A stretch of DNA of 63,317 nucleotides, the filler included, from Pigoraptor vietnamica (taxonomy: Eukaryota): assembly GCA_943704525.1 (NCBI GenBank). It is 9 parts of 9 records of this genome, joined end to end, with 100 filler letters (N's around TTAATTAATTAA, not from the genome) between each part and the next. Parts side by side here need not be neighbours in the genome. Positions count along the whole stretch, not along the records: positions 57,740 to 59,879 come from CALSCQ010003164.1; 8 more parts are not named here. One strand, given 5' to 3'. Positions 1,854 to 62,047 of this stretch are shown here, piece after piece. Both the position numbers and the translations under genes were made by a program. The notes under the pieces were generated by a model. It saw nothing but the letters and a program-made list of their open reading frames with translations. It did no database searches and was not told where the DNA came from. Within the stretch, counting starts at the first letter, position 1. The number at the start of each line of letters is the position of its first letter.

Positions 1854-1891
<38 letters not shown>

Positions 1892-8490: not shown

Positions 8491-8631
8491 TCGGTCTCAA
8501 TCGCGCCGTCTCTCTATTTCGTGTGGGAGGACGGGCGTTGTAGTAGGAGGCATGGAAGTGAGGATATAAGCGCCCCTGTGTCTCGATTTGCGCCGCGTTC
8601 GTCGCGTGGACGGGGGGACGCATAGTGGAAA

Positions 8632-17600: not shown

Positions 17601-20600
17601 GCCCTGCGCAACAAGGTCAGCGAGATGTGCGTGGAAGTGCACGTGAGCGTGACGGAGGCGAGCCAGCGCTACTTCCAGGAGCTCCGCCGCCACTACTACA
17701 CGACGCCGACGAGCTACCTCGAGCTCATCAACCTCTACACGTCCATTCTCGACGAGAAGAGGCTCGAGCTGCGCACGAACCGCGACCGCCTCCGCAACGG
17801 CCTCGGCAAGCTGGAGGAGACGAACACGGTCGTGTTCCGGATGCAGGAAGAGCTGAGCGCGCTGCGGCCGGAGCTTGAGGCGAAGGCCAAGGACACGGAG
17901 GCGCTGCTGGTGCGGCTTGCGAGCGACCAGGAGAGTGCGGACGCCGTCAAGCGCGTCGTCGAGGAGGAGGAGGCCGTCGTGCGCGACCAGGCCAACGAGT
18001 GCGAGGTGCGCCTAACTCTGTGATGGTGACTCTGTGTATCATTTCATGCTGTTGCGACTGCATGGTTGTCTCTTTTGCTCACAAACACCCACCCTTCCCC
18101 ACACACAGGTGATTGCCGCCGAGGCCCAGCGGGACCTTGACGAGGCCCTCCCTGCGCTCGAGGCTGCAATCGCCGCGCTCGACTCGCTCGACAAGTCGGA
18201 CATTGCGGAAATTCGCGTGTACACGAAGCCGCCCGAGATGGTCATGACGGTGATGGAGGCCGTGTGCGTGCTGCTGCAGGAGAAGCCGGACTGGGCGACG
18301 GCCAAGACGGTGCTCGGCGACAACGGCTTCCTCAAGCGCCTCATGGGGTTCGACAAGAGCCGCATCCCCACGGCGGTGCTCGGCAAGCTGAAGAAGTACG
18401 TCGACAATCCGCAGTTCACGCCGGACGTCGTCGGGAAGATTTCGGTCGCATGCCGCTCGATGTGCATGTGGGTGCTCGCGCTCGACAAGTACGCCAAGGT
18501 CTTCAAAGTCGTCGAGCCCAAGCGCCAGCGTCTCGAGCAGGCGCAGGTGTTCCTCGAAAAGGCGCGCGAGACGCTGAGGGAGAAGCAGGAGGCGCTCGCC
18601 GTCGTGCGCAGTCGCCTCGAGGAGCTTCGCTCGCAGTACGAGCAGAGCCTCGCCGCGAAGGAACAGCTGGCCGACCGCATCGACGAGACGAGCAAGAAGC
18701 ACGAGCGCGCTTCGAAGCTCACGACCGCGCTTGCGGACGAGCGCACGCGCTGGGCGGAGACGGTGGCGCAGCTGGACCGCGGCATTGCGAACCTCGTCGG
18801 CAACGTCTTTGTCTCGTCTGCGTGCGTCGCCTACTACGGTGCCTTCACGTCGACGTACCGCCGCGACCTCGTCACGACGTGGACGCAGAAGTGCCGCGCG
18901 CTCGGCCTGCCCGTCTCGGACAACTACAGCCTCGTGGGCGTGCTCGCGGACCCCGTGCGCGTGCGCGACTGGAACATCTGGGGGCTTCCGAACGACACGC
19001 ACTCGACGGAGAACGGCCTGCTCGTGTCGCGTGGGCGCCGGTGGCCGCTGATGATCGATCCGCAGGGCCAAGCGAATCGTTGGGTGCGCAACATGGAGGG
19101 CAAGAACGGGCTCCGCATCATCAAGCAGACGGACGGCAACTACCTCCGCACGCTCGAGAACGCCATCCGCATCGGCAGCCCCGTGCTTCTGGAGGAGTTG
19201 GGAGAGGAGCTCGATCCCGCGCTGGAGCCCGTGCTGCTCAAGCAGGTGTACCGGCAGGGTCCTCGCACGCTCATCCGCCTCGGGGACTCGGACATTGACT
19301 ACGACCGCAACTTCCGCCTCTACCTCACGACGAAGCTCGCGAACCCGCACTACATGCCGGAGACGTGCATCAAGGTGCGTGGCCCTCTCTGTGCGATCCT
19401 GCGTGAAGTGTTGAGTGTGTGTGTGCGCGCGCCCCCGTGAATGTCATGGGTCGCCCCATGCGTGTGTGCCCGATTGAAACTCACGCGTGTGTGCGTTGTG
19501 TGCTCCGCAGGTGACGATCATCAACTTCACCGTGACGCAAGAGGGCCTGGAGGATCAGCTTCTCGGCGACGTCGTCCGCGCGGAGCGTCCCGAGCTCGAG
19601 GAACAGCGCAGCTCGCTCATTCTGCGGATGGCGGAGGACAAGAAGCAGCTGCGGGCGATCGAAGACCGCATCCTCCACCTCCTCTTCACGTCGCAGGGAT
19701 CCATTCTCGACGACGAGGTGCTCATCAACACGCTCAACGACTCGAAGGCGACGTCGGCCGTTATCCAGGACCGCGTGCGCGAGGCGGAACAGACGGAGGC
19801 GGAGATCAACTCTGCGCGCTTTGCCTACTCGCCCGTCGCCGTGCGCGGGACCGTCCTCTACTTTGTCATCGCCGACCTCGCGGAGATGGACCCGATGTAC
19901 CAGTATTCGCTCAAGTACTTCACGGCGCTCTTCAACCACTGCATCGTCTCGTCCGAGCCCTCGCCGGACCTCGCGCGGCGCCTCGAGACGCTCCTCGCGA
20001 ACATTACGTCGGTCATCTACGCCAACGTGTCGCGCGGTCTTTTCGAGCGGCACAAGCTCATCTTCTCGTTCCTCATCGCCGTCCAGATCCAGCGCAAGGC
20101 GGGCATCATCTCGGACGCAGAGTGGAGCTTCTTCCTCCGCGGTCCCAGCTTTTTGTCGGACGCGCGCGGGTCGCAACCAGAGTACCGCTGGCTCACGAAG
20201 AACATGTGGCGCGTTTTCTGCTTCCTCGACCAGAACGTTCCGACGTTTGCGGGCATCGTCGCCGACCTCCAGGCCAACGGGCCCGTCTGGGAGGCGTTCG
20301 TCAGCGCCGAGGCGCCCTTCCGCGGTCGCCTCAGCGGCCAATGGGAGCACATCACTCCCTTCCGGCGCCTGGTGCTGGTGCGCGGACTGGCCGAGGACAA
20401 GCTTATCCGGTCCATCTCGGAGTATGTCGTGCAGGCGCTGGGCCGGACGTTCGTCGAGTCGCCGCCGTTCGACCTCTCGCGGGCGTTCAACGACAGCTCG
20501 CCGGCGACGCCACTCATCTTTGTGCTGTCGGAGGGTTCGGACCCGGCGGGTTCCCTTCTCCGCTTTGCGTCGGATCGCAACTACACGAACCGGCTTCACA

Positions 20601-22523
20601 TGATCTCGCTCGGCCAGGGCCAAGGGGCGGTCGCAGAGGAACTCATCGCGCGCGCCATCCGCAGCGGCGACTGGGTGTTCCTGCAGAACTGCCACCTCGC
20701 GTCGTCGTGGATGCCATCGATGGAGTCGCTCGTCTCTGAGTTTTCGAGCCCGGAGGCCGAGCTGCACCCGGACTTCCGCCTGTGGCTCAGCTCGATGCCC
20801 GCGCGGTCGTTCCCCGTGGCGGTGCTCCAGAACGGCGTGAAGATGACGATTGAGCCCCCGCGTGGGCTGCGCGCGAACCTGAAGCGGTCGTTTGGCGAGA
20901 TAACGGACGCCGAATTTGAGGACACGAAGGCGGGGCGGCACTGGAAGCGGGTGCTGTTCGGGCTGTGCTTCTTCAACGCGATCATCCACGAGCGCAAGAA
21001 GTTTGGGCCCCTCGGGTTCAACATCAAGTACGACTTCACCGTCAGCGACCTCGAGGTGTCCATGTCCTTCCTGCGCATGTACCTGGCGGACAAGAGCGAG
21101 GTGCCCTGGCAAGCGCTGCGCTACCTCACGGGCGAAATCGTCTACGGCGGGCGCGTGACGGACGACTGGGACCGCCGCTGCCTGCGCGCGATCATCGGAC
21201 GTTACTACACGCCCTCGATTCTCGAGGACAAGCACCCGCTCGCGGAAGGCAACGACTACTATGTGCCTCCGCCGGGCCTCCTCGACACTTTCCGCCGCTA
21301 CATTGACGCCCTGCCGCTCACGGACGCGCCGCACGTGTTCGGGATGCACGAGAACGCGAACATTGCGCACAACGTCTCTGAGGCGCGCAGCCTCATCCAG
21401 TGCATTCTCGACGTGCAGCCGCGCCTCTCGGGTGCCGGCGGCGCGTCGTCCGGCGGGGACAGCGTCGACGACAGCGTCCTCGCGATGGTCAACGACATTG
21501 TCGAATCCCTGCCGGCGCTTTTGGACTTTTCGCAGGCGCACCCGTCGCTCCTCGTCGCGAACGAGCGCGGCCGCATGAACTCGCTCACGACGGTGCTTCG
21601 CCAGGAGACGGTGCGCTTCAACCGCCTTCTCGTGATCATGCGCCAGTCGCTCGAGTCACTGGCGAAGGCCATCAAGGGTCTTGTTGTCATGTCGGCGGAT
21701 CTCGAGGCGATGTACGTGTCGTTCACCAACAACCAAGTGCCCGCGCTGTGGGCGACGGCGGCGTACGCGAGCCTCAAGCCGCTCGGGTCGTGGTTCAAGG
21801 ACCTCTCCCTCCGCTGCGACTTTATGCGCGACTGGCTCACTCTCGGCCAGCCCAAGACGTTCTGGATCTCCGGCTTCTTCTTCCCCCAGGGCTTTGTGAC
21901 GGGCACGTTGCAGAACCACGCGCGCCTGCACAACGTCCCCGTCAACACGCTCCGATTCGACTACGCGGTGCTCAAGTACGACGCCGAGTACGTGCAGGAG
22001 GCGCCGGCGGAGGGCGTCCTCATCCACGGAGTGTACCTCGATGGCGGCCGCTGGGACCGCGGGAACGAGCGCCTGGCCGAGCCCATTCGCAACGAGATGT
22101 TCGCGGTGAGTGCGTGTGTGCGTGTGTGCGTGTGTGCGTGCATGTGTGGGCGGGGTGTGCTCCCTCCGCTGTCTTCACACTGCTGTGTCTCACCCGGTGT
22201 TGCTTCTCTCCACGCAGAAAATGCCGGTCATTCACCTCCTCCCGACACAAGCGCCCGCGAACGACGAGAAGAAGTACATATGTCCTCTGTACAAGACGTC
22301 GGCGCGTGCGGGTGTGCTGTCTTCCACTGGTGAGTCTCACGACGCCGAGTCTCGATGCGCCCTTGCCAACGTATAGACACGAGTGCAATTTCTTATGCAT
22401 TCTTCCTTTATTTTCGCAGGTCTCTCGACCAACTTCGTCATGTCGATCGCGCTGAACACGGCCGAGCCGAGCGAAGTGTGGACTTTGATGGGCTGCGCGC
22501 TCGTGTGCCAGCTCAACGACTAA
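8632..22523 (+). CDS. Axonemal inner-arm dynein heavy chain, DNAH6/DNAH14-like, complete (9 exons, 4273 aa)
   Basis: Exons 8632-11454, 11612-11991, 12122-12545, 12727-13602, 13764-18005, 18109-19374, 19511-22105, 22218-22329, 22420-22523 total 12822 nt in frame. Motifs: FPRFYFLSNDELLEIL, AAA1 GPAGTGKTET / CFDEFNRI / FITMNPGYAGR, P-loops GPTGGGKT, GTTGVGKS, GVGGTGKQS, stalk/MTBD, RRWPLMIDPQGQA, C-terminal CPLYKT..R.G.LS.TGLSTNFV. N-terminal YNPYKLRVV and FNCSEGLDYKMMG fit the DNAH6/14 clade. Confidence 0.96.
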
Positions 22524-23696: not shown

Positions 23697-23861
23697 CACG
23701 CCCAGATCTCGCAAGCGGCAGCGCTCTTCGGACTCGATCCGCTGCGCTCTTGCCGTTCTCGCCTTCAACCATCTCAAAAACCCTTTCGCGATAACGCACC
23801 TGTGACAGCGGATCGCCTCCCACCCCTCAACTTTTTACCCCGTTTTTTTTTCATCTTCAAG

Positions 23862-26800
23862 ATGCCGCCCCAGGAGACCGCCACGGCCGCGCTGCTCGTG
23901 CAGCTCGAGGGATCGGGCCGCAAGGAGGCCGGCACGACCATGGCCGAGCACGTCAAGACGACGGGCCTCGCCAAGGCTGAGAAGGCGCTGCTCTTTGCCA
24001 CGCTCGCCGAGAACATGAACAAGCAGGGCAAGACGGGCGCCGACTCGCGCGAGGGCGCGTGCATCTGCATCACGGCGCTGTGCAAGGAGCTCGGCGCCCC
24101 CGTCGTCCCCTACGTCGTCCCGCTGCTCCCGGCGGTGATCGAGCTCATGGGCGACAAGTTCCGCCCCGTCCAGGTGGCCGCGCAGGAGGCCGGCGATGCC
24201 ATCGTCGCCGCGCTCAACCCGAACGCGATCCGCGTCATCCTTCCCCACCTCCTCGGCAAGAGCGCCCGCTGGCAGTCGAACTACTTCCGGATGGAGGCCC
24301 TCGCGCGCCTCGTCGCGACGGCGCCGCTCCAGATGGCCCGCTTCATGGGCGATCTCGTCCCCTTCCTCTCGGAGGCCATGTGGGACCTCAAGCCCGAGGT
24401 CAAGTCGTCCGCCAAGGCCGCGATGCAGTCTGCATGCAACGCCGTCGACAACCGCGACATCAAGCCCTTCATCCCCGATCTCCTCCACGCGATCGAGAAC
24501 CCCAAGGAGGTGCCCGAGACGGTCCACAAGCTCGCCGCGACGACGTTCGTCCAGACGGTCAACTTTGCCGCGCTCTCGGTCATGGCGCCCCTTCTCATCC
24601 GCGGCCTCCAGGAGCGCTCGACGGCGACGAAGCGCCAGTGCGCCCGTATCATCGAGAACATGACCAAGCTCGTCGACCACGCGTACGACGTCGCGCCCTT
24701 CCTCCCCAAGCTGCTGCCCCTCCTCGAGGCCGCCAAGAACGAGGTCTCGGACCCCGAGTGCCGCGACGTCTGCCAGAAGGCGCACGAGATTCTCGTCAAG
24801 AAGGGCAACCTCAAGGAGCACGTGAACAAGCTCGTCGACGCCGCCGCCGTCCTCCCGATCGTCAAGGCCGCCCTCGGCTCGAGCGTCGCGCTCGTCCCCG
24901 AGCACGTCCAGCTCTTCGTCAGCGAGCTCTCGTACTCGCTCGCCGACCTCAAGGTCTTTGAGCACGAGGCGTGGACGAACACGGTCGTTCCCTACCTCCA
25001 CCCGTTCGTCGACGGGCACGTCGCGACGGTCGTCGTCGACAAGGTCCTCCGCGAGGCCGTCGACGGCGAGAAGGGCGTTGAGGAAGTGCAGGAGGCTGAC
25101 GACGCCGAGGAGCTCTGCAACACGACGTTCTCGCTCGCGTACGGCTCGAAGATTCTCCTCAACAACACGCAGCTCAAGCTCATGCGTGGCTACCGCTACG
25201 GCCTCGTCGGCCAGAACGACTCCGGCAAGACGTCGCTCCTCCGCGCAATCGCCAACCACAAGGTCGACGGCTTCCCCCCTGCGGACGAGGTGCGCACGGT
25301 CTTCGTCGAGACGGACATTCAGGGCGAGCTCTCGGACCTCAGCGTGCTCGACTACATCTACGCCGACGCGCTCCTCAAGGACTGCGGCGTCCCGCGCGAG
25401 GAGATGGCCAAGGTGCTCCAGTCGGTCGGCTTCACGGACGAGTCGCCCGCGAACATCACCACGCCCGTCGGCGCCCTATCTGGCGGTTGGAAGATGAAGC
25501 TCGCCCTCGCGCGCGCCATGCTTCTCCGCGCCGACATTCTGCTCCTCGACGAGCCGACGAACCATCTCGACGTCCACAACGTCAAGTGGGTCGAGGGCTA
25601 CCTCAGCAGCCTCAAGGGCGTCACGAGCATCATCGTCTCGCACGACTCTGGCCTCCTCGACCGCGTGTGCACGCACATCATCCAGATCGACTCACTCAAG
25701 CTTCACGTGCACAAGGGCAACCTCTCCGAGTTCGTCAAGATCGTCCCCGAGGCGCGCTCGTACTTTGAGCTCAAGGCTTCCAAGGCCGTCTTCCGCTTCC
25801 CTCCCCCTGGCCCCCTCGACGGCATCAACTCGAAGGGCAAGCCGATCATGAAGATGACGGACATCACGTTCACGTACCCCGGCGCCTCGAAGCCCCAGCT
25901 GCGCAACGTCACGGTCCGCTGCTCGCTCTCGTCGCGCGTCGCCTGCCTCGGTGTCAACGGCGCGGGCAAGTCGACGATGATCAAGCTGCTCACGGGCGAG
26001 CTCAAGCCGGACGAGGGCTCTGGCGAGGTGTGGAAGCACCCGAACGCGCGCGTGGCGTACGTCGCCCAGCACGCCTTCCACCACATCGAGAGCCACCTCG
26101 ACAAGACGCCGAACGAGTACATTCGCTGGCGCTACGAGAACGGCCGCGACAAGGAGGCGCTCGAGAAGGTCACGCTCATCCTCACGCCCGAGGAGGAGGC
26201 CAAGATGAAGCAGCCCTTCATGGTCGAGATTGAGGAGGCCGACGGCACGATCAAGCGCGAGAAGCGGACGGTCGAGTCGTTCACGGAGAGCCGCCGCGAG
26301 ATTTCGAAGCGCGTGCAGTACGAGGTCCGGTTCGTCAACTACCAGAACCCCGTCTGGGTCAACCAGCAGGTGCTCCTCGACAACGGCTTTGCCAAGGTCC
26401 TCAAGGGCATCGACGAGGCGATTGCGCTCGCTGCATCGACGTTTGGCCGTGCGCTCACGACGGCGAACGTCGAGAAGCACCTCGGCGACTGCGGCCTCGA
26501 GGCCGAGTTTGCGACGCACATGCGCATCCGCGCGCTCTCGGGCGGCCAGAAGGTCAAGGTCGTCCTCGCTGCCGCCATGTGGAATTGCCGTGGGTATCTG
26601 TTCGTCGCTGTTGATGCTACGTGTGCTGCTGCGCGTGTCACTTTCATAGTTTGCTGGTTCGTAGCTCCTTGCTGACCTTTCCTTTCCCTTTGTGTCTGCG
26701 CAGCGCACATTCTCATTCTTGACGAGCCCACCAACTACCTCGACCGCGAGTCGCTCGGCGCGCTCTCTGGCGCCATCCGCGAGTTTGACGGCGGCGTCGT

Positions 26801-39833: not shown

Positions 39834-41839
39834 TTAAGTCCACGGGTAGAAGTTTGAGAAGACAAGCGGACCCAGCGCAAAATACAGCGCGAGATAAAAC
39901 GCAACGAAGCGAGGCGCCTTTGAGCCTGCGCCACCCGCCGACAGCCGCGTGAATAGCCGTCCCACAAACCAGTAGACGACGGGAGATGCACTGGCGACGA
40001 AGCGCGTGAGCACCTGCGCCGACAGCGCGTAAGTTCCTGACAGGCAATATAAAAAAAAAAAGGGGGCGACAGCAAACCTGCACGTGCATGAAGAGCGTCC
40101 CGCCGATCACCAGAGCGAGCAGGTGCGCAACGTATGGCACGGCGTGCAAGTCCGCCCAGAAGTGGTCGTGGACCCATCCATCTGCGCGGCAGGACGTATG
40201 GCTCAGCATGCGCCCCGACGTAGCACAGACGAGCGGCACGTACCCATAGAGGGGTGGATAGAGCCTCGCTGGTAAGGTGGTCGCCGGTACTGGCGGTATT
40301 TGACGCAGAGCTCTGCACGCATTATGCAGAGAATAGGGTTACTTGAACTCGCATGGATTGGGCACACAGCCACAGTCGCAGTATGATACATACCAAAGAC
40401 ACATATCTACCATAACAGGCACAATCTACAAACCGAAGAGAGGAAAGTCGACATCCAACGCACCTTTCAGAGACCACGCTGCGCCAGCAACGCACAGTGT
40501 GACCATGGGTGCAGCGAGCAGGAAATTGGGCAATTGCTTCAGCTGAAAGTATCGCAGGAAGCCGTTGTGCCTGCGCAACAGGCGGCCTCAGCAACCGCCA
40601 ATAAAATGCATGGGACAGCAGGCACAGCGCGCATTTGCAACGTGTGGCAGTGCAGCACAAGGCACCAATGTGCAACACGCGAGTAACACACCAATAGTGG
40701 TCCTGCACAAACGCGTAAACCGACGGCACGGTCCAGCCGCACCACGGTCTGCACTCGGCCCCGGTGCCGTGCCCGGCGACGCAAAATCTCATAAACGCCA
40801 TTGCGTTGAACGCCACGAACGGCGCAAGCACAGCGACTGTCGAAAGCGCGCACGAAATGACGTACAGCACAGATTTTAGCGGGCCAGAGTTGGGCCGCGG
40901 TGGCGCGGAAACGGACGCGCGGCGGCCGGAGGAACGCCGTCGTCGGGCGGTGGGTGATGACGCAGCGACGACGTCGACTGACGAAACGACCCGCACACCG
41001 GGCCACAGGAGGCCGTGTTGCAGCACGTGACACAGGCCAATCCACGCGGGAAACAGGCACAGCAGGACGCCATTTGCGCGCGCGCACGTCGCACCGGCGA
41101 ACAACAGCGAGGCGGCCAGCAACCAGCGCAATTGCCGCAGCCGCACGTGACGCTCGAGGCAGAGAAGCCCGCTGAACGACAGCGCGGCAAATAGGCTCTC
41201 CGAGTACGCCGACGACATAAAAATGGACGCCGGGTTGGCGCAGAAGGCGAGCGACGACGCAGCAGCAAGTACGCGGCTGCCGGACACCTCCGCGGTGAGC
41301 GCATAAAGTGCGGCGGCCGCGCACACAAAGGCGACATTCGCCAGGAGGACGCCAGCCAACAGGGCCGCCGCATCGACGCCGAGAGGAGGCGCGCCGTCGT
41401 CAGTGGGCGCCCACAGCCGGAGGGGTGCGAACAGAACGACATCCACAGCGCGCGCGGCCAGCGGAAGGAGCGGAAAAAAGGCGTGAGAGAGCTCGTGCTC
41501 GTAGCCCCGCGCGGCCGCAATGCCAACGAAATGGACGGCATCCCACTTGTGTAAGCCACCGATACCCACATCGACAGCCGCGTCCAGGCCACCACGCGGG
41601 CCGTGCAGTCCCCGGTGCGTCAGTCTGCACAGTAAAATCGTAAGTATAATTAAATATGGACAGTGACCATGTGCTGAGGCCATTCAGACACATACGATGT
41701 GGACGTGTCGTAGTCTTGGATGGCGGCATTAAACCCGCACTGGAGTAGTAATGTGACGACCCTGCACCACATCCACGCGCGTCAGCTGTCAACACATACA
41801 CGCACGGACACACGCACGCACGCACACACACACACATGC

Positions 41840-47745: not shown

Positions 47746-50700
47746 TAATTTGAGCTTCTGTAAGCTGAATTTTCTTCCTCTCGGGTTGTTCGACACGTTA
47801 ACCTTCGTCACCTCACTGTGAGTGAAGAATTCAAATTGGCACGCGCCGCCTGGCATGCAATTCAACTGCTGCGCGCGGGTGCATATTATTCATGCGCGAT
47901 GGTGCTGTGCGTGGCCTGTGTGTGTGAGATAGTGAGGCGAATGTTCGTGCATTAATGCGGGTTAGTAACTTTCTCGTGAGCGGGCATGTACGTGGAATAT
48001 GATATCTGAGTTTCTTATTTTTCTTTTCTTCTTTTATGTTGTTTTTATTTTATCACTTCCAGTCCGCACACTTACTGACTTGACGCTTCCCTCAGGTCAC
48101 TTAACGATAACCAGCTGTCGTCCCTTCCCGCAAACCTTCTTGTTCCTGTCGCAAGAACTGTGGGCGACGGAATGTGAGCTCATGCCGTGTGCTCCGATGT
48201 CTTGCGTTGTTCAGCTCACAGCATTGTGTATGAGTGAGCCGCTTAGATCGCACTGTCTATTTTGCTACATGCTGCGTGCTGATCCGCAATCGGTCCCAGT
48301 TGACTTTTTGCTTTGGCTCACGTTCAACACTTTCCCATTCCCAATACCCTCCGGCCTCCTTGACTTACAGAGCCCTCGGCAACAATCCCGGCGGCAATGG
48401 GAATCAGTGCTCCAACTCGAACGCATACTGTATCGTTGGCACGTGCCAGAATTGCTTCTGCAGCCCCGGTTACGCTGGTCCACGCTTTCCTACCGAAAAC
48501 AACCCCTGCCAAAGGCGGTGCACTTCCCTCGATGACTGTCGTCGACCGTGCGATGTGCCCTGCGCCAACGGGGGGGTCTGTGACACGAGCGTATCTGTCT
48601 GCAACTGCGCGGCGGGCTGGTGAGTGCTTGTTCTGATCGCATTGTGTCCAGGGCCGGGCCATTTCAATCTCGTGACTGTGCTTACTTGTTGCCTGTGCGC
48701 TATTAATGTAGGACTGGCACGGCATGCACGCAAGCATGCAACGCGGGATGGTACGGAGTGAACTGCGCACAGCGGTGTGCATGTGCCAATGGCGGTACCT
48801 GCGATCGCTTCAACGGCGCATGCACGTGTACCGCGGGGTGGACGGGCAGCCGTTGTGAAGACCCTTGCCGTGCCGACAACTATGGCCCAGGGTGCTCTCG
48901 TGCCTGCGACTGCGCTGCTGGCGCAACGTGCAACCGATTCACGGGCGCATGTAGTGGGGGTTGCAGCGCACCGGGGAGCACGCCCGCGGCCACCTGCGCT
49001 GTACAGTGCGCGAATGGCGGCTCGTGCAACATGAACACGATGACATGCAACTGCGCGCCTGGATGGTGAGGGTGTGCCCGCATCGTGTGTATGGTAGTGT
49101 ACTTGTGCCGTGCGTATGTATTTGCGGGTTCTGTGGCTCTCATACAGTGTGTACATCGGTGTTGCAGGACCGGCATTGCCTGCACGCAGGCGTGCGATTC
49201 TGGATTCTATGGTGCGAACTGCGCGCTGCAGTGCACTTGCGCGAACGGTGGAGCGTGCGATCGCTTCACGGGAATGTGCTCGTGCACAGCGGGGTGGATG
49301 GGCAGCCGGTGCGAAGACCCCTGCCGCATGGACAACTACGGACCAGGTTGTGCCAGCTCTTGTAATTGCACTGCGGGTGTTGTGTGCGACCGGTTCACGG
49401 GCTCGTGCAGTGGTGCGGCGCCAACGCCCGCGTTCGCGTGCGCAATTCCGTGCTCGAACGGAGGCTCGTGTGACGCGAAGACGGGCACTTGCATTTGCGC
49501 CGCAGGATGGTGAGGCTGACCCAATGTGAAGTGTATTAGAGTACGGTGCCCTGTTCGATCTTGCTTGGCACTCACACGTCTTTATCATGGCGCAGGAGTG
49601 GTGTGGGCTGCACGCAATCGTGCAACGTCGGATGGTACGGACCGAACTGCGCACAGCGGTGCGCGTGTGCAAACGGCGCTGTGTGCGATCGCTTCACAGG
49701 AATATGCACCTGCACGGCGGGGTGGATGGGTAGTCGCTGCGAAGACCCCTGCCGCATCGACAACTATGGGCCTGGCTGCTCCGGCACATGTATTTGTGGC
49801 GCTGGTGTCGCGTGCAACCGATTCACTGGAGCGTGCGGCGTGACTGCCACCTGCCCTGTGCCGTGCATGAATGGCGGCTCTTGCGACGCGAAGCTGCAAA
49901 CGTGCACTTGCTCGGCGGGATGGTGAGTGATGGGATTCAACGCTGTAGGGCATGCGAGTGCCTTGTTCCCGACATGGCGCTGATTTATCTGAACCGCCCG
50001 CCGCGGTTGCCGTAGGACTGGTGTGGGCTGCATGCAGGCATGCGATGCGGGCTGGTATGGACCTAATTGCATGCTGCGGTGTGCGTGCGCGAACGGCGGT
50101 GCGTGCGATCGCTTCACGGGAATGTGCACGTGCACGGCGGGGTGGACAGGCAGTCGATGCGAAGACCCTTGCCGCATCGATAACTACGGGCCCGGCTGCT
50201 CCAAGACTTGCAACTGCACGGCAGGCGTCGTGTGTGACCGGTTCACGGGTGCGTGCATCTGGGCTTACAGCACTGCGGCAACGGCGCCCACGACCTCCTG
50301 CGATGCAAAGACAGGGGCGTGCAATTGCGCTGCAGGATGGTGAGTGTACGTTGTGCACCATGCGGCACAAATCTGTTGCATTTATTGAGACTTTTTCTCG
50401 CTGCCGTTTTACTCTCCCACCTGACGTGTGATGCATTGTAGGACTGGCGCGAACTGTGCGCAGGCGTGCGACGCGGGCTGGTACGGCAGCAACTGTACGC
50501 TGCGGTGTGCGTGCGCGAACGGCGGAGCATGCGATCGCTTCACGGGAATGTGCACGTGCACGGCGGGGTGGACGGGCAGCCGCTGCGAAGACCCTTGCCG
50601 CGTCGACAACTACGGGCCTGGCTGCTCCAACAACTGCAATTGCATCGCCGGTGCCACATGCGACCGGTTCACGGGCGCGTGCCGAGGGGTTGCCGTGTGT

Positions 50701-52723: not shown

Positions 52724-55700
52724 GACGTGGACTATGAGACGCTTGTGTGGTCCAAGGTGTATCCCGCGTGGCGTTCACTCCCGGAGCAGCGCCGCTACAG
52801 CGACGGCCACACGCTCGTCACCGTGAACGAATTCGTCACCGTGCACTCCATGTACGCCGGCGTCTTCCACTTTGCCACCGCCGCAATCGACCGCCGCCTC
52901 AAGGCGAAGGCGAACGCCACCGTCGAGCGCCCCACGTACCACTGGCAGGATCACGTCCCCCCTCTCCTCCACCCGCTCGTTTCCGTGACTGGCCTCGACG
53001 TGTGTCCCGCTCCCATCAACATCTACACGCCGCCCGGGCTGCTCTTCAACGGACGTCCCGGTGCCACGTGGGACCCGGCGTGCGTCGACTACGGCAGCGT
53101 CGTTGACGCGACCCTTGCGGCCTCGCTCGGAGAACCGCCGATGACGCAGCTCATTCGCCTGGAGCCCGACAAGTACCACTCGCCATCGGTGAGGATTTAC
53201 TGCGGCGGCAAGGACAGGGTTGATCTGAGCGGGTACGCGACGATGGAAGTGCGCATTCGTCTGGCAGACAAGGGCGCGCCTCCCGTGAGCAATTACGGCG
53301 TGTTTGTGGCGGGTTACACGGGACGCACGCCATTGATCAACATGGTGGATTATCTCGTCGACGACAGCGGCCAACCTTTGCCAGCGGACAAGAAGGCAAG
53401 TTGCTTCGTGGACTCCGATTGTCCCTCTGGGCCTGCTTTGTGTGCGAGTATTTGCGTGGCGCAGTTGCATGTGACGGATGTCGCGCGTGCGATGCCTGAC
53501 GAATTGTGTGCCGGGCGCAGGCCATCGGCGGCGAGTGGGTGCGCGCGCGCATTCCCATGTCGGACATGCGCACCCCGTCATACGACGTGTGCTCCGTCGA
53601 CTACGTCCTCTTCGGCACGATGGACCCTCCGCAAGAGTTCTACGTGTCGGAAATCGTCTTCTCTGGTGTGTTTTCGGCTGTACATTTGTGCGCGTGACAC
53701 ACGAGTAGTGTCGTTGTGTGCGCCGTTGCTCGCGATCATCTAACATGGCATTGTGCAAGCATTCACGTTCACGAGCTCGTTCGTTCGCAGGCGACGGCAC
53801 CCCTCCCGCGAAGCTCGTGGAGGTCCTCACGGCGGCGGACAACGCGATTGCTCTCGTATACGATGCCCCCGCACAGGGAGTGCCACCGTCCCAGGATCCC
53901 CTCGACTACACCATCGACGGCGCGCACCCGTCCGCCGTCGGTCGCTACTCTGTTGTGCGCGGCGAAGACCTCCGCGATTGCAACAAGCTGTACGTGCGAC
54001 ACCACATCTACCTCGTCCTGCCGAACGGCGCCGTACTCCAGAACGGACGGACGTACACGCTATCGTCCGCGACGCGCCACGGCCCGGCGTCCCGCACATT
54101 TCGCTTTGACGAAACGTTCGTGCGTTGCGAGGCGATCAAGGTGAACCAGGCCGGCTATGGTTCCGTCACGGGCGAGCGGCGATATGCCACTCTCGGCGTG
54201 TGGCTCGGGCAACTCGGCACGAAGCGCCTCCCCTCGCCGCCGCACTACAGCGTCATCCGCGTGTCCGACGGCGTGCCTGTCTTTACGGGCGTCGCCAACG
54301 CACCCATTGACGACCACCTCCTCCCCTTTGCCAGCGGCGAGTACGTCTATCGTCTCAACCTCGCGGGCGTGCCGAACGGCGGGCCGTACAAGGTCTCCGT
54401 GGCCGGCTTCGGGACGTCGTACGCCTTTGGGATCGGCCCCGACTACGTGCGCCACGTCGCTTACGTCGAAATGCGCGGCCTGTTCCACCAGCGCTGCGGC
54501 ATTGAATTGCCGCCTAAGAACACCGAGTGGCCGCGGGAAGTGTGCCACGCCGTCGTGAACGTGACGGAGGGGGATCCCGGCGGCTTCATCACTCAAACCA
54601 GCGACGTGCAGCGGCCCGCAAAGGGCGGATGGCACGACGCGGGCGACTTTGACCGCAACTACGGCCACCTGTTTGCCGTTGAGTCGTTCCTCGTCATGTA
54701 CGAGGCTTACGCGCACGTGCTTCGCGATTCGACTCTCGATCTACCGGAGAGCGGAAACGGTATTCCCGACGTGCTTGACGAGGCGATGTTTGGGGTGCTC
54801 TTCTGGGAGACGATGCAGGAAGACGACGGCGGCGTGCGCGCGGGCATCGAGGCTCAGGAACACCCGGTGTGTGTGTGCGGACAGTTTGTTGCCCTCTTTG
54901 CTGTACCATGGTGCCTGAGAAATGTGTGTGTGTGTGTGTGTGTCTGCGTTTCTATCTTCGTGTTTGTGTGCGTTTTTTTTTTCCCCTCGTGAGGGTGTGT
55001 TAATAACACAGCTGTGTTCTCACGTACCTGTCTTTTTCTGTGCAGGGGTACGGCATTGTCTACGCCGCCAACGACACGCTCGCCTACCGCACGTTCCGGC
55101 GAATGTGGCTGACCACGGCCGCCGGCGCAGGCATCTTTGCGCACGCGTCGCGCCTCGTCCGTCCCTTTGACGCTGCAAGGGCCGATGTGCTTCACGCGCG
55201 CGCTCTCAAGGCATGGCGGTGGGCAGAGAATTACCCCGACGGGCCGGAGAAGCGCGCCGCACCGCGCATGTATGCGTGCCTGCAACTGTACATCTCAACC
55301 GGCGACGAGGCCTTCCACGATTGCTTCAAGTTCGAGAGCCAACGCCTCGGGAACGGCGCACTTGGGTATCCGCAGGTGTGCATTTCGCGCTTCTTGTTGC
55401 AATTACTTTGTGTTTGTCACCTGTATTCGCGCCATGTTGTTCTGTCGGCGAGCACTCGGCTCTCGGCTGTTGTGGGCTCTCGTGTTTGTTTATTCTCGTG
55501 TTTGTTTATTCTCGTGTTTGTTTACCTCCTTCCTCCTCACATGGGTGTGTCCGTCGTCTCTCACTCACTTGCGTCACCGTCTCTCTCACGCCCTCCCTCC
55601 TAACATCCACCCTGTGCCGCAGGCCTATCGCCCGGATTACTGGAGCGGCCCGACGATGCGCGAGGGCCAGATATTCGCCGATTACTTTTACGATTATCTC

Positions 55701-57187
55701 CTGCTCAACAGCACCGGCGTGAACAGGTTCAACGTCAGCGCGACGCCGAACGACCCCACGTGGCGCCCGTTCCCCGTCGACCCTGCCGTCGCGGCTCTCG
55801 TGCGCGGTTGGCTTGGCTATAAGACGACCGAGTATCTCCGCTCCCTCAACGGCTACGCCTATCCCCTCGGCTCGCCGCCGAATGTCGGGTGGGGCTCGTT
55901 CACGACGCAGGGCGCGTACGCGGAGCCTCTCCTCCTCACGCACCGTCTCACGGGGGAACGGGACCTGCTGTCGTGGGTGGAGGTCATGTCCGACTATTCA
56001 CTTGGGCTCAATCCGCTTGGGAAAAGCTACGTCACGGGCCTTGGCGCCGACCGGCCCGTTACGCCGCTCAACCTGGACAGTTACTTCTGGGAGCAGCGCG
56101 GGAAGGAGCCCGTGCCCGGGATAACGCTCTACGGTCCCACTGGGTCGCCATCGGGGCTCGAGTACGAGTGGCGGGTGTGGCACAAGTCGTACCCGAACTG
56201 GTTCCTGCTGCCGGACCAGCGCCGATTTGCGTGGGTGTTGTCGCGCGCCCTTTCGTGTGTCATGTTTGAGTTTGCGTGGCTATATTTTGGTGATTTCAAA
56301 TCGCGTTGTGCGTGTTGAGGCTTTCGAACCGTGTTGCACGTGTGTCCGTGCGCATTTCTCACGTGCGTCGCCTTTCGTACCCTGCAGCGAGGGGTGGAGC
56401 TTTGTCGGCGCCAATGAGTACACGATCACGTGGCCCATGTCCAGCAATGCAGTCATGTATGCGGTGCTCTCGGGGCTGCAGGACGCCGCTGCGGCCGCTA
56501 CGGACGGTGCGGGTGGGTTTGTAGGTGCATGATTGCGTGCGTTGCGTGTTTTTGGCGTGATGCCTGAGTCTCACAGCGAATGTTACGGTGTTGCGCAGGC
56601 GCCAGCCGCACATTCGTGTACGATCCCGTTCACAACATCGGGTTCGCGTGTACATTGGGCCATTGCTTCCTCGCCGTTGCTTCGAAGAGTCGCTTGGAAT
56701 CTTGGACGCGTGAGTGAGCGTGCCTGTGTGTCTGTGTGTATGTTTCACATTGCTGCCGTTCTGCTATGTACTTGTTTTTTCATCTATCTCACGTGCCCTC
56801 TCTTGCGCAGCGCTCGACAAGGCCGGCATTGCGTCGGTGGAGGGCATCCGAATTTCCGACGGCGCCGCCTTCGGTCACACATCGAGCGGTGCCGGCGTCA
56901 TGAGCACCGACGGCGGCAGGTCGTGGTCGCCCATCTCGGCGGACGACATGAGCCGTGCTCTCGCACAGGCGGGGATCAAGCGCGCGCGCACGGTGTCGGC
57001 AACTTCGGACGGCACGGACACGCGCATTGGGTCGCTGAACGGCATGCCGGAAGGTAGCCTCGACGGGCCTTTCATCGTCACTGCGCGGGGCGTGCACGTG
57101 TACGACGACGCACTCGGCCGCCCTCGCGTCATTGCATTGTGGCAGTGCAACGTGGGCACGTGCCAAGCGCCAACCCCCGTCCCGTAA
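52724..57187 (+). CDS. Glycoside hydrolase family 9 with CBM-like and CelD-type Ig-like domains and a C-terminal Asp-box region (5' truncated, 8 visible exons)
   Basis: Exons 52724-53395, 53521-53665, 53791-54866, 55046-55375, 55623-56230, 56388-56512, 56599-56709, 56811-57187. Motifs: IKVNQAGY, GLFHQRCG, GGWHDAGDFDR, LPESGNGIPDVLDEA, LGLNPLGKSYVTGLG, NEYTI (catalytic Glu), STDGGRSW. Confidence 0.9.
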
Positions 57188-57496: not shown

Positions 57497-57778
57497 CTGA
57501 ACAGGTTAGGACGGGTTGAACATGAATTCGATCGTCATAGTGAGACGAGGGAAGCCTTGTTTTCGTCTAGTACAGAAATGCGAGGCTCGATGGCTAAAAG
57601 GAGCAGAGGATGAGGAGGAGGGGGGGGGGGGGGGGGGGGNNNNNNNNNNNNNNNNNNNNNNNNNNNNNNNNNNNNNNNNNNNNTTAATTAATTAANNNNN
57701 NNNNNNNNNNNNNNNNNNNNNNNNNNNNNNNNNNNNNNNCCCCCCCCCCCCCCCCCCCCTTCATACGCACGCACGTAC

Positions 57779-59726
57779 CATTCTCAAAGTAGACGCAAGG
57801 AATGCCGTCTGTTGCCGTGCAGTGGTCGTCCTCGGTGCCGCCCTTCTCGAAAATGAGCGACTGCGCAATGGGGCACCCGCTGTACACCACAAGATTCGTC
57901 GTCGTGGCAGCCTAAACATGGACAACACGCACTCGGGTTTCAGCGACTGAGGAGGCGTGGGCGTCTGAGAACAGCGCCTTTGGACACTTGGTGGAATTCC
58001 TCGATGAACCCCAATGACTCTCACACGAAAACGGCCAGACAAAGAGAAGCTCGCCCCTCGACACAAGCATGCAAACGGCCGATGGAGAGGACACGGTCGC
58101 CCACCTTCGTGTCGGACAGCTTCGAGTTGTCCTGACAGGCGAACGACGCCCCGTTGACGAGCAATCGCACGTTCGTCGGCCGCACATTCACTCCGGGGAA
58201 ATTCTGGTCACGTGGGACGCCGTTATCCTTGATGCTGAACTGCAAAAAGGAACAAGACGACGGATTAGCTACTGAAAGACGGGTTTTCCATCACTCCGGC
58301 CACCCTGCGACGGAGTGACACGGGAGAGATGCACACGCAGCGCACTTAATGTTGCTGTTAAAAACAAAAACAGACGCACACACGCGGCATACGACTGCAG
58401 CAGCGCACAGCCGCGAGTGTGCACTCACGGTGAAATTGACCGAGTTGGACACTGCCGAGACGCTCTTATAAAAATCGACCGTCACGAAATTCTCCTCGGC
58501 AACGACCGTCGCCGCGAGGTCGTCGATTGCGACGCCGTCCGCGGGCGTGATGGACATGACGACGCTGTAGTCGGCGCCCTTGTCGAGGAAGATGCGGTCG
58601 GGCAGGTCCGTCGACTGCGTGTTCTGACGCCGGGTCACGTCCGGGTTCTTCTCGGCCGTCAGCACAAGCTCCTTGTACGGACACTTGGCCTGGAGAGGAG
58701 AACGAAAAATGAGTCAGACGGAAGAAGGGAGAAGAGGAGGGGGGCGAGAGTGGCAAGACGTGAGCGTGCCAACGACAACACCGAGCTAAACGACGTGTTC
58801 GCATGTCACCAAAGGCTGCCTGACCAAGATGGCGTCACCCACGTCGTTTGCGAAGGCCGACTGCTCGAGCTCCAATTCGACGTCGATGGTGCGCACGACA
58901 AAGTCGCTTGCGTTCGTGTTTGAAATCGAGACAAACTGCACCCGCAGAGGGAACGGAAAGGATTGGCCACCACCAACAGGGACAGCGAGGCGACAGGTGA
59001 GGTGCCAGTATGTGAAGGACGAATATGCGATGTGTGCGTGCGATGTGTGAACTTTTGTACGTTGTGTGTGTGGGTGTTTGGGAGGGAAGAAGAGCCGAAA
59101 CACGCAAAGAAAAGCGACAACGCAGAAGAGGACGCGCAGGAGAATGGCGAAAAAATCTGGACCTCACACACCGAACTGCACAGACTACAAAACCCCGCAA
59201 AACAACAGTGCAATTGAGGGATAGGCCCTTAGAGGGACAATCCGATCCCATTCGCACCTTGAGATTGTTTGGGAAGTCATAGAAGATGGTGAACTTGCGC
59301 GGCGAGGGGTCCGCGGGCGACACGAGGACCATCACCGAGTAGTCCCCTTGGCCGTACCACACCTGCCACGCGCACACGGCAAACAGCGAAGACGCCGTCA
59401 GTTCGCACGCATGCGACGGATGACAGTGCAGCAGTTCGACGTAGGGGCCACAACAAGCAGCGCACGGACGATCCTTTTCAAAGTCACGTCCACACAGACA
59501 GACAACGCACATGCGTGCACGGCATCACACGCTTCATGCATACGGCATCACACGCTGCATGCACACGGCATCACACGCTGCATGCACACGGCATCACACG
59601 CTGCATGCACACACCTCCCCGCTCTGTGTGAGGCACGCGTACGACGAATCAAACGACGACGCAAACGCCGTGATGGGCGAGTCCACAAAGTCCCGCATGA
59701 CGTAAAAGCTGTGGCCGGCGTCCGGA
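57779..59726 (-). CDS. CATSPERG: CatSper channel auxiliary subunit gamma homologue (internal fragment, 6 exons)
   Basis: In-frame GT-AG exons from 59726, 59362, 58935, 58689, 58239 and about 57911 give PDAGHSFYVMRDF...SFDSSYACLTQSGE|VWYGQG...TIFYD|...VVRTIDVE...|AKCPYKELVL...TDLPDRIFLDKGADYSVVMSI...NSVNFT|FSIKD...DQNFPG...VNGASFAC|...LVVYSGCP.AQSLIF...C....GIPCVYF. This is collinear with mammalian CATSPERG motifs as I recall them (LPERIFLDKGTEYSF, NSVLF.ITLKD, DQG.SG, V.IGCP.GK.L.F, MPCFLF). Confidence 0.85.
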
Positions 59727-62047
59727 CTGCAACGGGCGGGGTAAAATAAGCATCGCCCACTCACGGATGGTTGCGCGGGTGACAGATACTTGCTTCGGGC
59801 CAGCAATTGAACGCGCGAACGAAAAAAAACAAATGGGGCAGATGCAGCAAGCACCGAGAGTACAGGGTGGGGGATGGGGNNNNNNNNNNNNNNNNNNNNN
59901 NNNNNNNNNNNNNNNNNNNNNNNTTAATTAATTAANNNNNNNNNNNNNNNNNNNNNNNNNNNNNNNNNNNNNNNNNNNNACATCAAATAGGCTATAATAG
60001 GGATCGGAACACCACTGTAGGCGCCACAAAATACGCACACGCGCACGCCGCGATGACGGCTACGAGTCCGCTGCGAGAATAAGGCAGCCGGCCACCAGCA
60101 GAGCCACAAAGCACACACTGCTCAGCAATGGAAGACACGACAGGCAGCTACTACTGCACGTGAACATACCACCGAAATATAACTGAAACACTCAGATGAT
60201 CATGACTGGACGCATGCAAGCAACAGCCGACAGTGGGTACACATAGAAGTACATGCAGCAGCACACAAGCACATACAGTAAGTGATAAACTATTCACGGA
60301 AACGTACGACACCGACATTACACACAGCAACTTTGACGGACCGTCTGCCAGTGACAGAATGATCACATGTACATCACGCACCACTGACCTGATGTGCTGA
60401 CAGACTGCAGTGTCCCTCTTGTCACAAGGTCAAACGAGCTAAAACGAGACGAAAACATGCTCACTCACTCACATGCGCCTTGATAGATCGGCTGTTCTGC
60501 GCGGAGAACAAACGGCAGGCCCGAGTCAGAGTCAGGCAGCACATCACTGATTGTGAGCTGAGTGAGCTGATGAAAACGTCGTATTATAGGCATGCAGACG
60601 TCACAGCGACACTGCATGCACAAGTATACCAACTTCCTCAGTCACGTCATGGAACGGAAAGGCTGTAGGAAGTTCAAACGCCGCGAAGATGTGAGAGAGT
60701 TAGTGAAGCACGGTACATCCGGACAGATTGCACATTAAAAGGCGTTGCACGGCAAAAACGAAAACATATTCTGAGACACATTCACGAGCACACCACGCAA
60801 ATGACACTTCGCAGTCTCACGAAGATAATGGAAACTTTAGGAGCGTAAAAGGAGTCAGCGAAATCAGAGATGAGAGTGCCGGGGTTGAACAACTTTGAGG
60901 GGAAAAAGGGCGCCAAGAATTTGTGTGACAAATCAGAATTTATTAATTTATTAATGTATGAAATTTGTATGGAGATTTCACACAAAATTTTATTCGGAAA
61001 ATTTGATGTGTTACGCGGTCACGTGGTATGTAACACGCACTTAGCGCACGTCGCACAAGCTCTCTTTCCACGGCAAGTGGGGTGAGTTTAACACGGCACT
61101 GGTTTGCAAGAGCGCAGGTATGTTTTATCGTTTGTAGGGAGACTGGGCAGTGGAGTTCTAGTTTCATCCTGGGTACTCCATCGGCTGCCCAGCCGGCCGG
61201 CCACTGTGTGACGTGACGCGTACGCATCACACGGGCGCCGATGCATCGGCGTCTCGTTGAACTGAACGATGTGATCTTCATGACTGGAAAGTACTCAGTA
61301 GTGGGGTTTGAAGTTGCGAGCTCAAACATGGTGTGCTTCCCTTCTTTCAGGCCAACCTTCAGCTTCCCTTCTTTTGTGCTTCAGTCTTCTCCACGGCAGG
61401 ATGCGTCGTGAGATTTAGTCGGCCGCCGCCAGCCCAGCACGGCGTATCAGTTTCGGCCGGCGACGTCGACAGGTACGTCACTAAGACTCTGCTGCGGTAC
61501 GTATATCTGTTATGTATGGTTTTTGTTAAAGTTCGGTACAGTAACGTGTCTATCGATCGGGATTCTGATGCCGTGTTTATGCGCCTGCGTCGTGCACGTG
61601 TGCTGTATACGTTTGTAGTGTGCAGTGCCGGTACCGGTACATGCATTTGTGCGCAGTTCAGTCAGTGTGCATGTCCGTCGGCTCAGTTGTCAAGGCGGTG
61701 TTGGAGAGATCACGATCAATGGTGAAAATCGGGATGCGCGTGCGTATGCATGTGTGTGTGTGTGTGTGTGTGTGCCGTGTGTGTGTGCCGTGTGTGTGTG
61801 TGTGTGTGTGTATGTGCCGGTGTGCGTGTGTGCGTGCGTGTGTGCGTACGTGTGTGTGCGTGTGCGTATGCATGTGTGTAGTGTGCGTGTGCGTGTGCGT
61901 GTGCGTATGCATGTGTGTAGTGTGCGTGTGTGTGTGCACGGCGCGTGGATAGTGTCGCAGTGTGTGCCACTGACAACGCACGTCCGTGCTTCAGTTGTGT
62001 GCTGTGCGCATATGTGTGACGGGGTGGGGTGTGCAGTGCATGAGTGA

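What the first reader, a model, noticed from the sequence alone, without database searches (positions are those of the whole stretch)
57779..59726. CatSper-gamma, a sperm Ca2+ channel auxiliary subunit, hidden in six short exons of an apparently non-animal flagellate genome
Seen: six exons splice in frame into about 290 aa carrying CATSPERG motifs in the right order, including CP-Y, LPDRIFLDKG.DYS, GCP and PCVYF. Known: CatSper drives sperm flagellar hyperactivation and has been reported in only a few scattered non-animal flagellated lineages. Inference: the assembly also has eEF3 and a hybrid histidine kinase (both absent from animals) plus an axonemal dynein, so this looks like a unicellular flagellate with a CatSper complex controlling its flagellum. 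The CPY-to-LPDRIF spacer is only about 22 aa, much shorter than the long segment I recall in mammals, suggesting a compact ancestral ectodomain.
Basis: partly seen in the sequence, partly recalled or inferred. Interest (0 to 1): 0.8.

Follow-up and report, generated by a model that had tools for sequence, protein, structure and literature searches.

The report
CatSper gamma fragment, unicellular animal relative
A 2.1-kb contig carries six spliced exons of CatSper-gamma, an accessory subunit of the sperm calcium channel, and the organism is a flagellated single-celled relative of animals, which extends a known scattered distribution rather than revealing a new kind of gene.

Summary
This peptide aligns end to end with residues 465-744 of a 963-aa Pigoraptor chileana protein (58% identity, E 5e-116). 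That protein passes Pfam's cut-offs for CATSPERG_Ig-like and CATSPERG_C. In the PDB it hits only mouse CatSper gamma-2 chains (E 2e-25).

Two window exons also hit CATSPERG_Ig-like directly, collinearly, but each below the cut-off. A 208-nt contig from a public run joins exons B and C exactly as predicted and moves the exon C donor to 58843.

The rest of the window has eEF3 (88% identical to P. chileana), a CHASE hybrid histidine kinase and a DNAH6-like axonemal dynein. The host is therefore a non-animal holozoan flagellate.

Three things were not testable. The gene is cut at both contig ends. No genome is held, so the pore subunits could not be sought. The "compact spacer" claim could not be checked. 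Verdict: a real new member of a known kind, of moderate interest.

The parts
57740..59879 (.). The contig that carries the finding (2,140 bases). It begins in poly-C and both ends lie inside introns, so the gene is cut on both sides.
   Evidence: N-run map; contig heads and tails; no further match to the relative upstream of exon A or on other contigs.
59615..59726 (-). Exon A: ..S/PDAGHSFYVMRDF...LTQSGE. Acceptor ttgcAG|T (phase 2), donor GAG|GTGTGT. 74% identical to P0001.
   Evidence: tblastn E 3e-13.
59363..59614 (-). Intron 1 (252 nt, GT..AG). It holds a 23-bp tandem repeat at 59518-59612.
59258..59362 (-). Exon B: VWYGQGDYSV...FPNNLK. Phase 0 at both ends.
   Evidence: Public-run contig covers 59258-59359 with 0 differences.
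58936..59257 (-). Intron 2 (322 nt, GT..AG). It is removed in a public-run contig.
   Evidence: Joint 58935->59258, skips 322, ends CT..AC on the + strand.
58843..58935 (-). Exon C: FVSISNTNASDF...SAFAND. Donor GAC|GTGGGT at 58843. An in-frame alternative donor at 58825 would add 6 aa.
   Evidence: Gapless alignment to P0001 only with the 58843 donor. The 12-letter loose end before 58842 equals the + strand end of exon D.
58690..58842 (-). Intron 3 (153 nt with the 58843 donor, GT..AG).
58429..58689 (-). Exon D (87 aa): AKCPYKELV...LPDRIFLDKGADYS...SVNFT. It carries the CPY motif, a 23-aa spacer and the first half of the Ig-like domain.
   Evidence: Pfam PF22851, E 6.3e-4, 20.1 bits, profile 2-23. 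P0001 E 5.8e-25, 59% identity.
58240..58428 (-). Intron 4 (189 nt, GTGAGT..CAG).
58105..58239 (-). Exon E (45 aa): FSIKDNG...NGASFACQDNSKLSDTK. Second half of the Ig-like domain.
   Evidence: Pfam PF22851, E 0.016, 15.6 bits, profile 75-113. 62% identical to P0001.
57912..58104 (-). Intron 5 (193 nt, GTGGGC..TAG).
57779..57911 (-). Exon F: AATTTNLVVYSGCP...DHC...IPCVYFEN+G. Donor G|GTACGT (phase 1). Its last ~9 residues begin the CATSPERG C-terminal (stem) domain.
   Evidence: 68% identical to P0001. GCP, C and PC..F align with mouse gamma-2. P0001 CATSPERG_C starts at residue 736.
58120..58605 (-). Extent of the CATSPERG Ig-like domain on the contig (exon D residue 29 to exon E residue 40, interrupted by intron 4).
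   Evidence: Collinear Pfam hits of two exons. Mouse IPDLFFLDKG aligns with the profile's lPdsifldk.

Best explanation
The contig holds the middle third of a gene for CatSper-gamma (CATSPERG). In mammals this is one of four single-pass membrane proteins whose large extracellular domains form the canopy over the CatSper1-4 calcium channel of the sperm flagellum.

The fragment covers about residues 465-744 of a protein of roughly 960 aa. By weak similarity, exons A-C are the last part of the propeller region. Exons D-E are the complete Ig-like domain, which in mouse contacts the other three canopy subunits above the pore. Exon F begins the stem domain. The N-terminal ~460 aa and the C-terminal stem and membrane helix lie off the contig.

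Shown here: the gene is intact over its six exons, and the owner is a flagellated unicellular holozoan whose nearest sequenced relative is Pigoraptor chileana. The exon B-C junction stands in spliced form in a public-run contig; if that run is RNA, the gene is transcribed.

Inferred (about 0.6): the full protein sits in the flagellar membrane with a CatSper1-4-type pore and beta and epsilon/delta-type partners. It would help assemble or stabilise a Ca2+ entry channel that changes the flagellar beat, as in sperm.
For: - Exon model: six exons with canonical borders and no stops.
- Closest relative: the spliced peptide against P0001 (P. chileana) shows 58% identity and 77% positives over 286 aa, E 5e-116. 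Against P0004 (Gonapodya prolifera, a chytrid) it shows 30% identity, E 1e-36.
- Family of the relative: P0001 passes Pfam gathering scores for CATSPERG_C (70.1 against 27.6 bits) and CATSPERG_Ig-like (36.5 against 27). P0001 hits mouse CATSPERG2 at E 2.1e-25, and 2 of 2 PDB hits at E<=1 are gamma-2 chains.
- Profile including window exons: hits the same 2 chains at about E 1.6e-22 and aligns LPD-IFLDK, the Cys of FAC, GCP, a further Cys and PC--F with mouse.
- Direct window hits: exons D and E hit PF22851 at profile positions 2-23 and 75-113.
- Splicing: a 208-nt public-run contig with 0 differences joins 58935 to 59258, and its loose end matches exon D.
- Same organism as the rest of the window: eEF3 is 88% identical to P. 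chileana, and GC3 and RSCU fit.
- Flagellum: a DNAH6-like axonemal dynein is present.
- Mechanism in mammals (Ig-like domains meet at the canopy roof; each membrane helix pairs with S2 of a pore subunit): passages of bioRxiv 10.1101/2024.11.18.624146.
Against: - Each window exon is below Pfam's cut-off on its own (20.1 and 15.6 against 27 bits).
- Exons A, B, C and F give no Pfam hit at E<=10.
- Single exons D, E and F do not hit mouse CATSPERG in the PDB at E<=10. The link to the animal protein therefore runs through the relative.
- Only about 29% of the gene is on the contig, so its integrity, signal peptide and membrane helix are unknown.
- No pore or other CatSper subunit was found in the window, and the genome could not be searched.
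- The kind of run X1 is not on record, and only one low-depth contig shows the joint.
- The propeller family PF15064 is not detected even in the full-length relative at E<=10.
Confidence: 0.85

Rival explanations
1. It is a gamma-like ectodomain protein that survives without a CatSper channel. The pore subunits would have been lost, and the protein would do another job at the cell surface, such as adhesion or prey contact.
For: No pore subunit is seen in the window. [quoted passage not shown] Extensive lineage-specific loss is described (PMC5362262, passages).
Against: [quoted passage not shown] The residues conserved with mouse lie in the Ig-like and stem parts that contact other subunits. 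63 kb is far too little sequence to show absence.
Confidence: 0.12
2. It is a decaying pseudogene or gene remnant.
For: Only a fragment is seen, and the contig ends in low-complexity sequence.
Against: About 280 codons over six exons are open, all ten borders are canonical, and identity to a relative is 58% with the cysteines kept. A spliced copy is present in a public run. Other contigs of the window also end in homopolymers or microsatellites, which points to assembly breaks.
Confidence: 0.03
3. The contig is a contaminant from an animal or another organism, not from the flagellate that owns the eEF3, kinase and dynein contigs.
For: It is a separate 2.1-kb contig with denser introns than the dynein and eEF3 genes.
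Against: The best relative of both this gene and the eEF3 gene is the same species, P. chileana. Mouse is only distantly similar. GC3 is 0.83 and RSCU r is 0.89 against dynein plus eEF3.
Confidence: 0.03
4. It is another canopy subunit (beta, delta or epsilon) rather than gamma.
For: The language-model search with the relative's residues 465-910 lists epsilon, delta, beta and gamma clusters with nearly equal scores of 0.89-0.92. There is a weak CATSPERB_2nd hit on P0001 453-516 (E 0.11).
Against: The only Pfam families above cut-off are the two gamma-specific ones. PDB searches hit only gamma-2 chains (2 of 2), and no beta, delta or epsilon chain was returned.
Confidence: 0.03

Closest known systems
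Mouse CATSPERG2 (PDB 7EEB chain F; 9UBW chain F)
   Same: The Ig-like and C-terminal (stem) domains are homologous. Conserved features are the IPD-FFLDKG start of the Ig-like domain, the Cys after the FA/GN position, GCP, a further Cys and PC--F. Pfam families PF22851 and PF22846 are shared via the relative.
   Different: The similarity is distant and not detectable from single window exons. The relative is 963 aa against 1145 aa for the chain. The propeller part is not recognisably alike. The host is a protist, not a sperm cell.
Pigoraptor chileana EukProt protein EP01137_P032690 (P0001)
   Same: Probable orthologue: 58% identity over the whole fragment, collinear with all six exons, and the same 23-aa CPY-to-LPD spacer.
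   Different: It comes from a different species: eEF3 is only 88% identical. It is known only as an unnamed predicted protein.
Gonapodya prolifera KXS18988.1 (P0004), hypothetical protein of a chytrid fungus
   Same: It has the same two gamma Pfam domains above cut-off. It keeps CPYK, the FAC cysteine, YSGC and PC.
   Different: Identity is 30%. The record ends before the membrane helix.
CatSper complex of non-animal eukaryotes as surveyed by Cai, Wang and Clapham 2014 (known here only through citing papers)
   Same: [quoted passage not shown] Thecamonas, Allomyces and Aurantiochytrium were among the genomes that paper screened. Two citing papers place CatSper in the Apusozoa, animal and fungal lineage (PMC7935092; PMC12714865).
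   Different: No paper in the searched library pairs CatSper with Pigoraptor or with 'holozoa' (0 papers each). Choanoflagellates were reported to lack CatSper (PMC2572835, passages). The 2014 paper itself is not held.

Membership tests
CATSPERG (CatSper auxiliary subunit gamma) | Match to Pfam CATSPERG_Ig-like (PF22851) at or above the gathering score of 27 bits | tested here: inconclusive
   Exon D scores 20.1 bits (profile 2-23) and exon E 15.6 bits (profile 75-113). They are collinear and each is below 27. The joined peptide could not be handed to the tool. The 58%-identical relative scores 36.5 bits.
CATSPERG (CatSper auxiliary subunit gamma) | CATSPERG C-terminal domain (PF22846) | not testable with these tools
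   Only about 9 residues of this domain lie on the contig (exon F end). The relative scores 70.1 bits against 27.6.
CATSPERG (CatSper auxiliary subunit gamma) | Closer to gamma than to the paralogous beta, delta and epsilon subunits | tested here: met
   P0001 and the profile A2 (which contains four window exons) each hit 2 of 2 PDB sequences, both gamma-2. No beta, delta or epsilon chain was returned. No beta, delta or epsilon Pfam family scores better than E 0.11. No tree was built.
CATSPERG (CatSper auxiliary subunit gamma) | Conserved cysteines and motifs of the Ig-like/stem region shared with the solved mouse protein | tested here: met
   Mouse IPDLFFLDKG, the Cys in ...GNC, GCP, the Cys in ...fdC and PCFLF align with the window/relative LPDRIFLDKG, FAC, GCP, HC and PCVYF. 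The CPY motif is shared with P. chileana and Gonapodya but was not aligned to mouse.
CATSPERG (CatSper auxiliary subunit gamma) | N-terminal beta-propeller (PF15064) | tested here: inconclusive
   Most of it would lie off the contig. Exons A-C give no Pfam hit at E<=10. The full-length relative gives no PF15064 hit at E<=10, only CATSPERB_2nd at E 0.11. The structure model was unusable (pLDDT 31).
CATSPERG (CatSper auxiliary subunit gamma) | Single C-terminal membrane helix | not testable with these tools
   It lies off the contig. In the relative a hydrophobic stretch aligns with the mouse helix.
CatSper channel complex | Co-occurrence with CatSper1-4 pore subunits and other canopy subunits in the same genome | not testable with these tools
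   No genome is held. Within the window, 0 ORFs scanned (14, 116 and 52 ORFs) hit Ion_trans or any CatSper family, but 63 kb cannot show absence.

The most novel reading that the evidence does not exclude
A predatory, single-flagellum protist on the animal stem keeps a working CatSper channel with its canopy. Choanoflagellates are reported to lack it. If so, the 'sperm-specific' channel was inherited directly from a flagellar steering channel of unicellular ancestors, and a compact protist version (about 960 aa for gamma, against 1145 aa for the mouse chain) could be a simpler system for reconstituting this so far non-expressible channel.
Probability: 0.5. Interest if true: 0.6.

Novelty: new member of a known kind. 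Interest (0 to 1): 0.4.

Why it matters
CatSper is essential for sperm hyperactivation and has been described as ancient but patchily kept. It is reported present in apusozoans, some flagellated fungi and many animals, and reported absent from choanoflagellates.

A gamma subunit in a unicellular holozoan flagellate, intact over the part seen, fills the gap on the animal stem. It suggests continuity of the channel from protist flagellum to sperm tail.

It also names an organism group in which the function of the extracellular canopy could be studied outside sperm. That function is still called unknown in mammals.

The gain is incremental. The orthologue in P. chileana already sits in a public protein set with the gamma Pfam domains precomputed, and the result is what phylogenetic bracketing predicts.

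Tried and rejected
- Whole-genome search for CatSper families: no genome is held for this window.
- Word-index search with exon D against longer proteins: 150 candidates, none at E<=0.01. The same index with P0001 residues 460-963 returned only P0001 itself.
- Single exons D, E and F against the PDB: no CatSper hit at E<=10.
- AlphaFold2 of P0001 with the 6-row alignment A2: mean pLDDT 31.2, pTM 0.24. The model was unusable, so no fold search was run.
- Atlas search with exon D alone: only unnamed bacterial clusters at 0.88-0.90, with recognition below the stated level, so uninformative.
- Atlas search with P0001 465-910: all listed hits are CatSper canopy subunits but do not separate gamma from the others.
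- Sequencing runs: no RNA holder was listed. One run of unrecorded kind holds 0.07 of the words, and it covers only 58842-58935 and 59258-59359.
- Plus-strand and off-frame ORFs on the contig (58276-58923+, 59225-59749+, 57761-58207-, 58835-59524-): 0 Pfam families at E<=0.01. They were rejected as genes.
- Bacterial FG-GAP repeat proteins P0002 and P0003 matched exon D residues 31-65 through 8 and 6 repeated stretches. Exon D itself gives no FG-GAP Pfam hit at E<=10. I treated this as repeat-amplified resemblance.
- Cai et al. 2014 (PMC4169769) is not held. Its content is known here only from citing papers.
- One literature search for the mouse structure's domain names led nowhere.
- The alignment of the short exons B and C as separate rows was partly misplaced by MAFFT. 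I relied on the pairwise alignment instead.

Full report
**What the window is.** The 63,317 bases are nine contigs joined by N44-TTAATTAATTAA-N44 linkers. The finding lies on the seventh contig, 57740-59879. Contigs end in homopolymers or GT/CT microsatellites, as short-read assemblies do. This contig starts in poly-C only 40 bases beyond the last exon.

**The observation.** Reading the minus strand in three frames and locating borders gives six open exons. Each is preceded by AG and followed by GT:
- A: 59615-59726
- B: 59258-59362
- C: 58843-58935, or 58825-58935 with the alternative donor
- D: 58429-58689
- E: 58105-58239
- F: 57779-57911

Introns are 135-322 nt. Four junctions are phase 0. 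The acceptor of A (phase 2) and the donor of F (phase 1) lead off the contig. The joined peptide has no stop, whether 286 aa or 280 aa.

**What it is.** Exon D alone, searched against 1.84 billion representative proteins, found four proteins at E<=0.001:
- P0001: 963 aa, E 5.8e-25, 59% identity.
- P0004: 902 aa, E 9.8e-4.
- Two bacterial FG-GAP repeat proteins that match through many repeated stretches.

P0001 is a Pigoraptor chileana protein from EukProt. P0004 is a hypothetical protein of the chytrid Gonapodya prolifera. Both pass Pfam's gathering scores for CATSPERG_Ig-like and CATSPERG_C.

P0001 hits mouse CATSPERG2 in the CatSper complex structure 7EEB, and in 9UBW, at E 2e-25. These were the only 2 sequences at E<=1.

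tblastn of P0001 on the window gives five collinear minus-strand matches covering all six exons. Nothing better than E 1.5 appears elsewhere.

The spliced peptide aligns with P0001 465-744 at 58% identity (E 5e-116) and with P0004 at 30% (E 1e-36).

Two exons hit the Pfam Ig-like family directly at profile positions 2-23 and 75-113. Each is below the cut-off (20.1 and 15.6 against 27 bits).

A profile of P0001, P0004 and four window exons hits the same two gamma chains at about E 1.6e-22. It aligns LPD-IFLDK with mouse IPDLFFLDKG, and it aligns the FAC cysteine, GCP, a further Cys and PC--F.

No beta, delta or epsilon chain or Pfam family competes. A language-model search cannot separate the four canopy families.

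**Splicing evidence.** One public run (X1, kind not on record) holds a 208-nt contig identical to the window. It joins 58935 to 59258, skipping exactly the predicted 322-nt intron. Its 12-letter loose end before 58842 equals the + strand end of exon D. This supports the upstream donor GAC|GTGGGT for exon C. That donor also removes the only gap against P0001. If X1 is RNA, the gene is transcribed and spliced. It is only one low-depth contig.

**The organism.**
- The eEF3 ORF (23697-26675) is 88% identical to P. chileana eEF3. The next hits are ichthyosporeans at 60-63%.
- CHASE, HATPase_c and Response_reg lie in order on the minus strand of 397-4050.
- The dynein heavy chain (12087-22330) is closest to axonemal DNAH6.
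- The CatSper exons share the codon bias of these genes (GC3 0.83; RSCU r 0.89).

The host is therefore a flagellated unicellular holozoan related to, but not the same as, P. chileana.

**How it most likely works.** In mammals the four canopy subunits each have N-terminal, propeller, Ig-like, stem and membrane parts. The Ig-like domains meet at the roof above the pore. Each membrane helix pairs with S2 of one pore subunit. Gamma also mediates contacts between channel dimers (passages of bioRxiv 10.1101/2024.11.18.624146).

The window fragment holds the whole Ig-like domain and the residues conserved with mouse. I therefore infer the same role, assembly and stabilisation of a flagellar Ca2+ channel, with a probability of about 0.6. 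Homology and the spliced form of one exon junction are shown. Partnership with a pore and a flagellar location are inferred.

**What could not be tested.**
- No genome is held, so the pore subunits could not be sought.
- Pfam scans of window ORFs found no Ion_trans or other CatSper family. Of the 242 ORFs of >=110 aa, 116 of the 125 outside contig 1 were scanned. The 9 left out lie on the finding's own contig.
- 52 of the 117 ORFs in contig 1 were scanned. Those left out were scanned or overlap those genes in other frames. One search scanned 14 long ORFs.
- The "compact spacer" claim stays open. The spacer is 23 aa here and in P. chileana and 25 aa in Gonapodya, but the mouse alignment begins only at the LPD motif.
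- The fold of the relative failed (pLDDT 31).

**Literature.**
- CatSper1-4, beta, gamma and epsilon are described as ancient with extensive lineage-specific loss (PMC5362262, passages).
- Two citing papers place the complex in the Apusozoa, animal and fungal lineage (PMC7935092 and PMC12714865, passages).
- It is reported as not universally kept in flagellated fungi (PMC13358043, passages).
- Choanoflagellates were reported to lack CatSper (PMC2572835, passages).
- Searches for CatSper with Pigoraptor and with holozoa each returned 0 papers.
- Cai et al. 2014 is not held.

**Verdict.** This is a real, well-read finding: a new member of a known family in an expected but undocumented lineage. 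Interest is moderate.

Noticed in passing
window 1-63317: The window is nine separate contigs joined by N44-TTAATTAATTAA-N44 linkers. Most contigs end in homopolymers or GT/CT/GA microsatellites, so neighbourhood across linkers means nothing.
   Followed up: yes
window 397-4050, minus strand: A hybrid histidine kinase with an extracellular CHASE domain (2515-4050), HATPase_c (1286-2158) and a receiver domain (397-828), split by introns. CHASE kinases are cytokinin-receptor-like sensors and are unusual so close to animals.
   Followed up: partly
window 12087-22330, plus strand (possibly from 8626): An axonemal dynein heavy chain closest to DNAH6 (inner arm) in solved axoneme structures. It has very long exons. 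The 986-aa ORF upstream (8626-11583) has no Pfam hit.
   Followed up: partly
window 23697-26675, plus strand: An almost intron-free eEF3 gene, 88% identical to the P. chileana protein and 60-63% to ichthyosporean ones. eEF3 is therefore kept in several unicellular holozoans.
   Followed up: partly
window 53709-56315, plus strand: A GH9 cellulase-like gene with a CelD_N Ig-like domain, in at least two exons. The scores are weak (about 26-30 bits).
   Followed up: no
window 40325-41683, minus strand: PIG-V type GPI mannosyltransferase (Mannosyl_trans2, E 1e-40). Its codon usage differs from the other genes (GC3 0.65, RSCU r 0.43), perhaps because the ORF as taken includes non-coding parts.
   Followed up: no
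window 59518-59612: A 23-bp tandem repeat (4.1 copies, 95% matches) inside intron 1 of the CatSper-gamma gene.
   Followed up: no
window 58495-58599 (exon D residues 31-65): This stretch matches bacterial FG-GAP_2 repeat proteins through 6-8 repeated stretches (E 3.7e-10 and 2e-4), although exon D itself has no FG-GAP Pfam hit. This is either a shared strand-turn motif or chance amplified by repeats.
   Followed up: partly
window 49070-49510, plus strand: An ORF with an EGF_2 match (E 3.9e-6) on a contig otherwise without Pfam hits.
   Followed up: no
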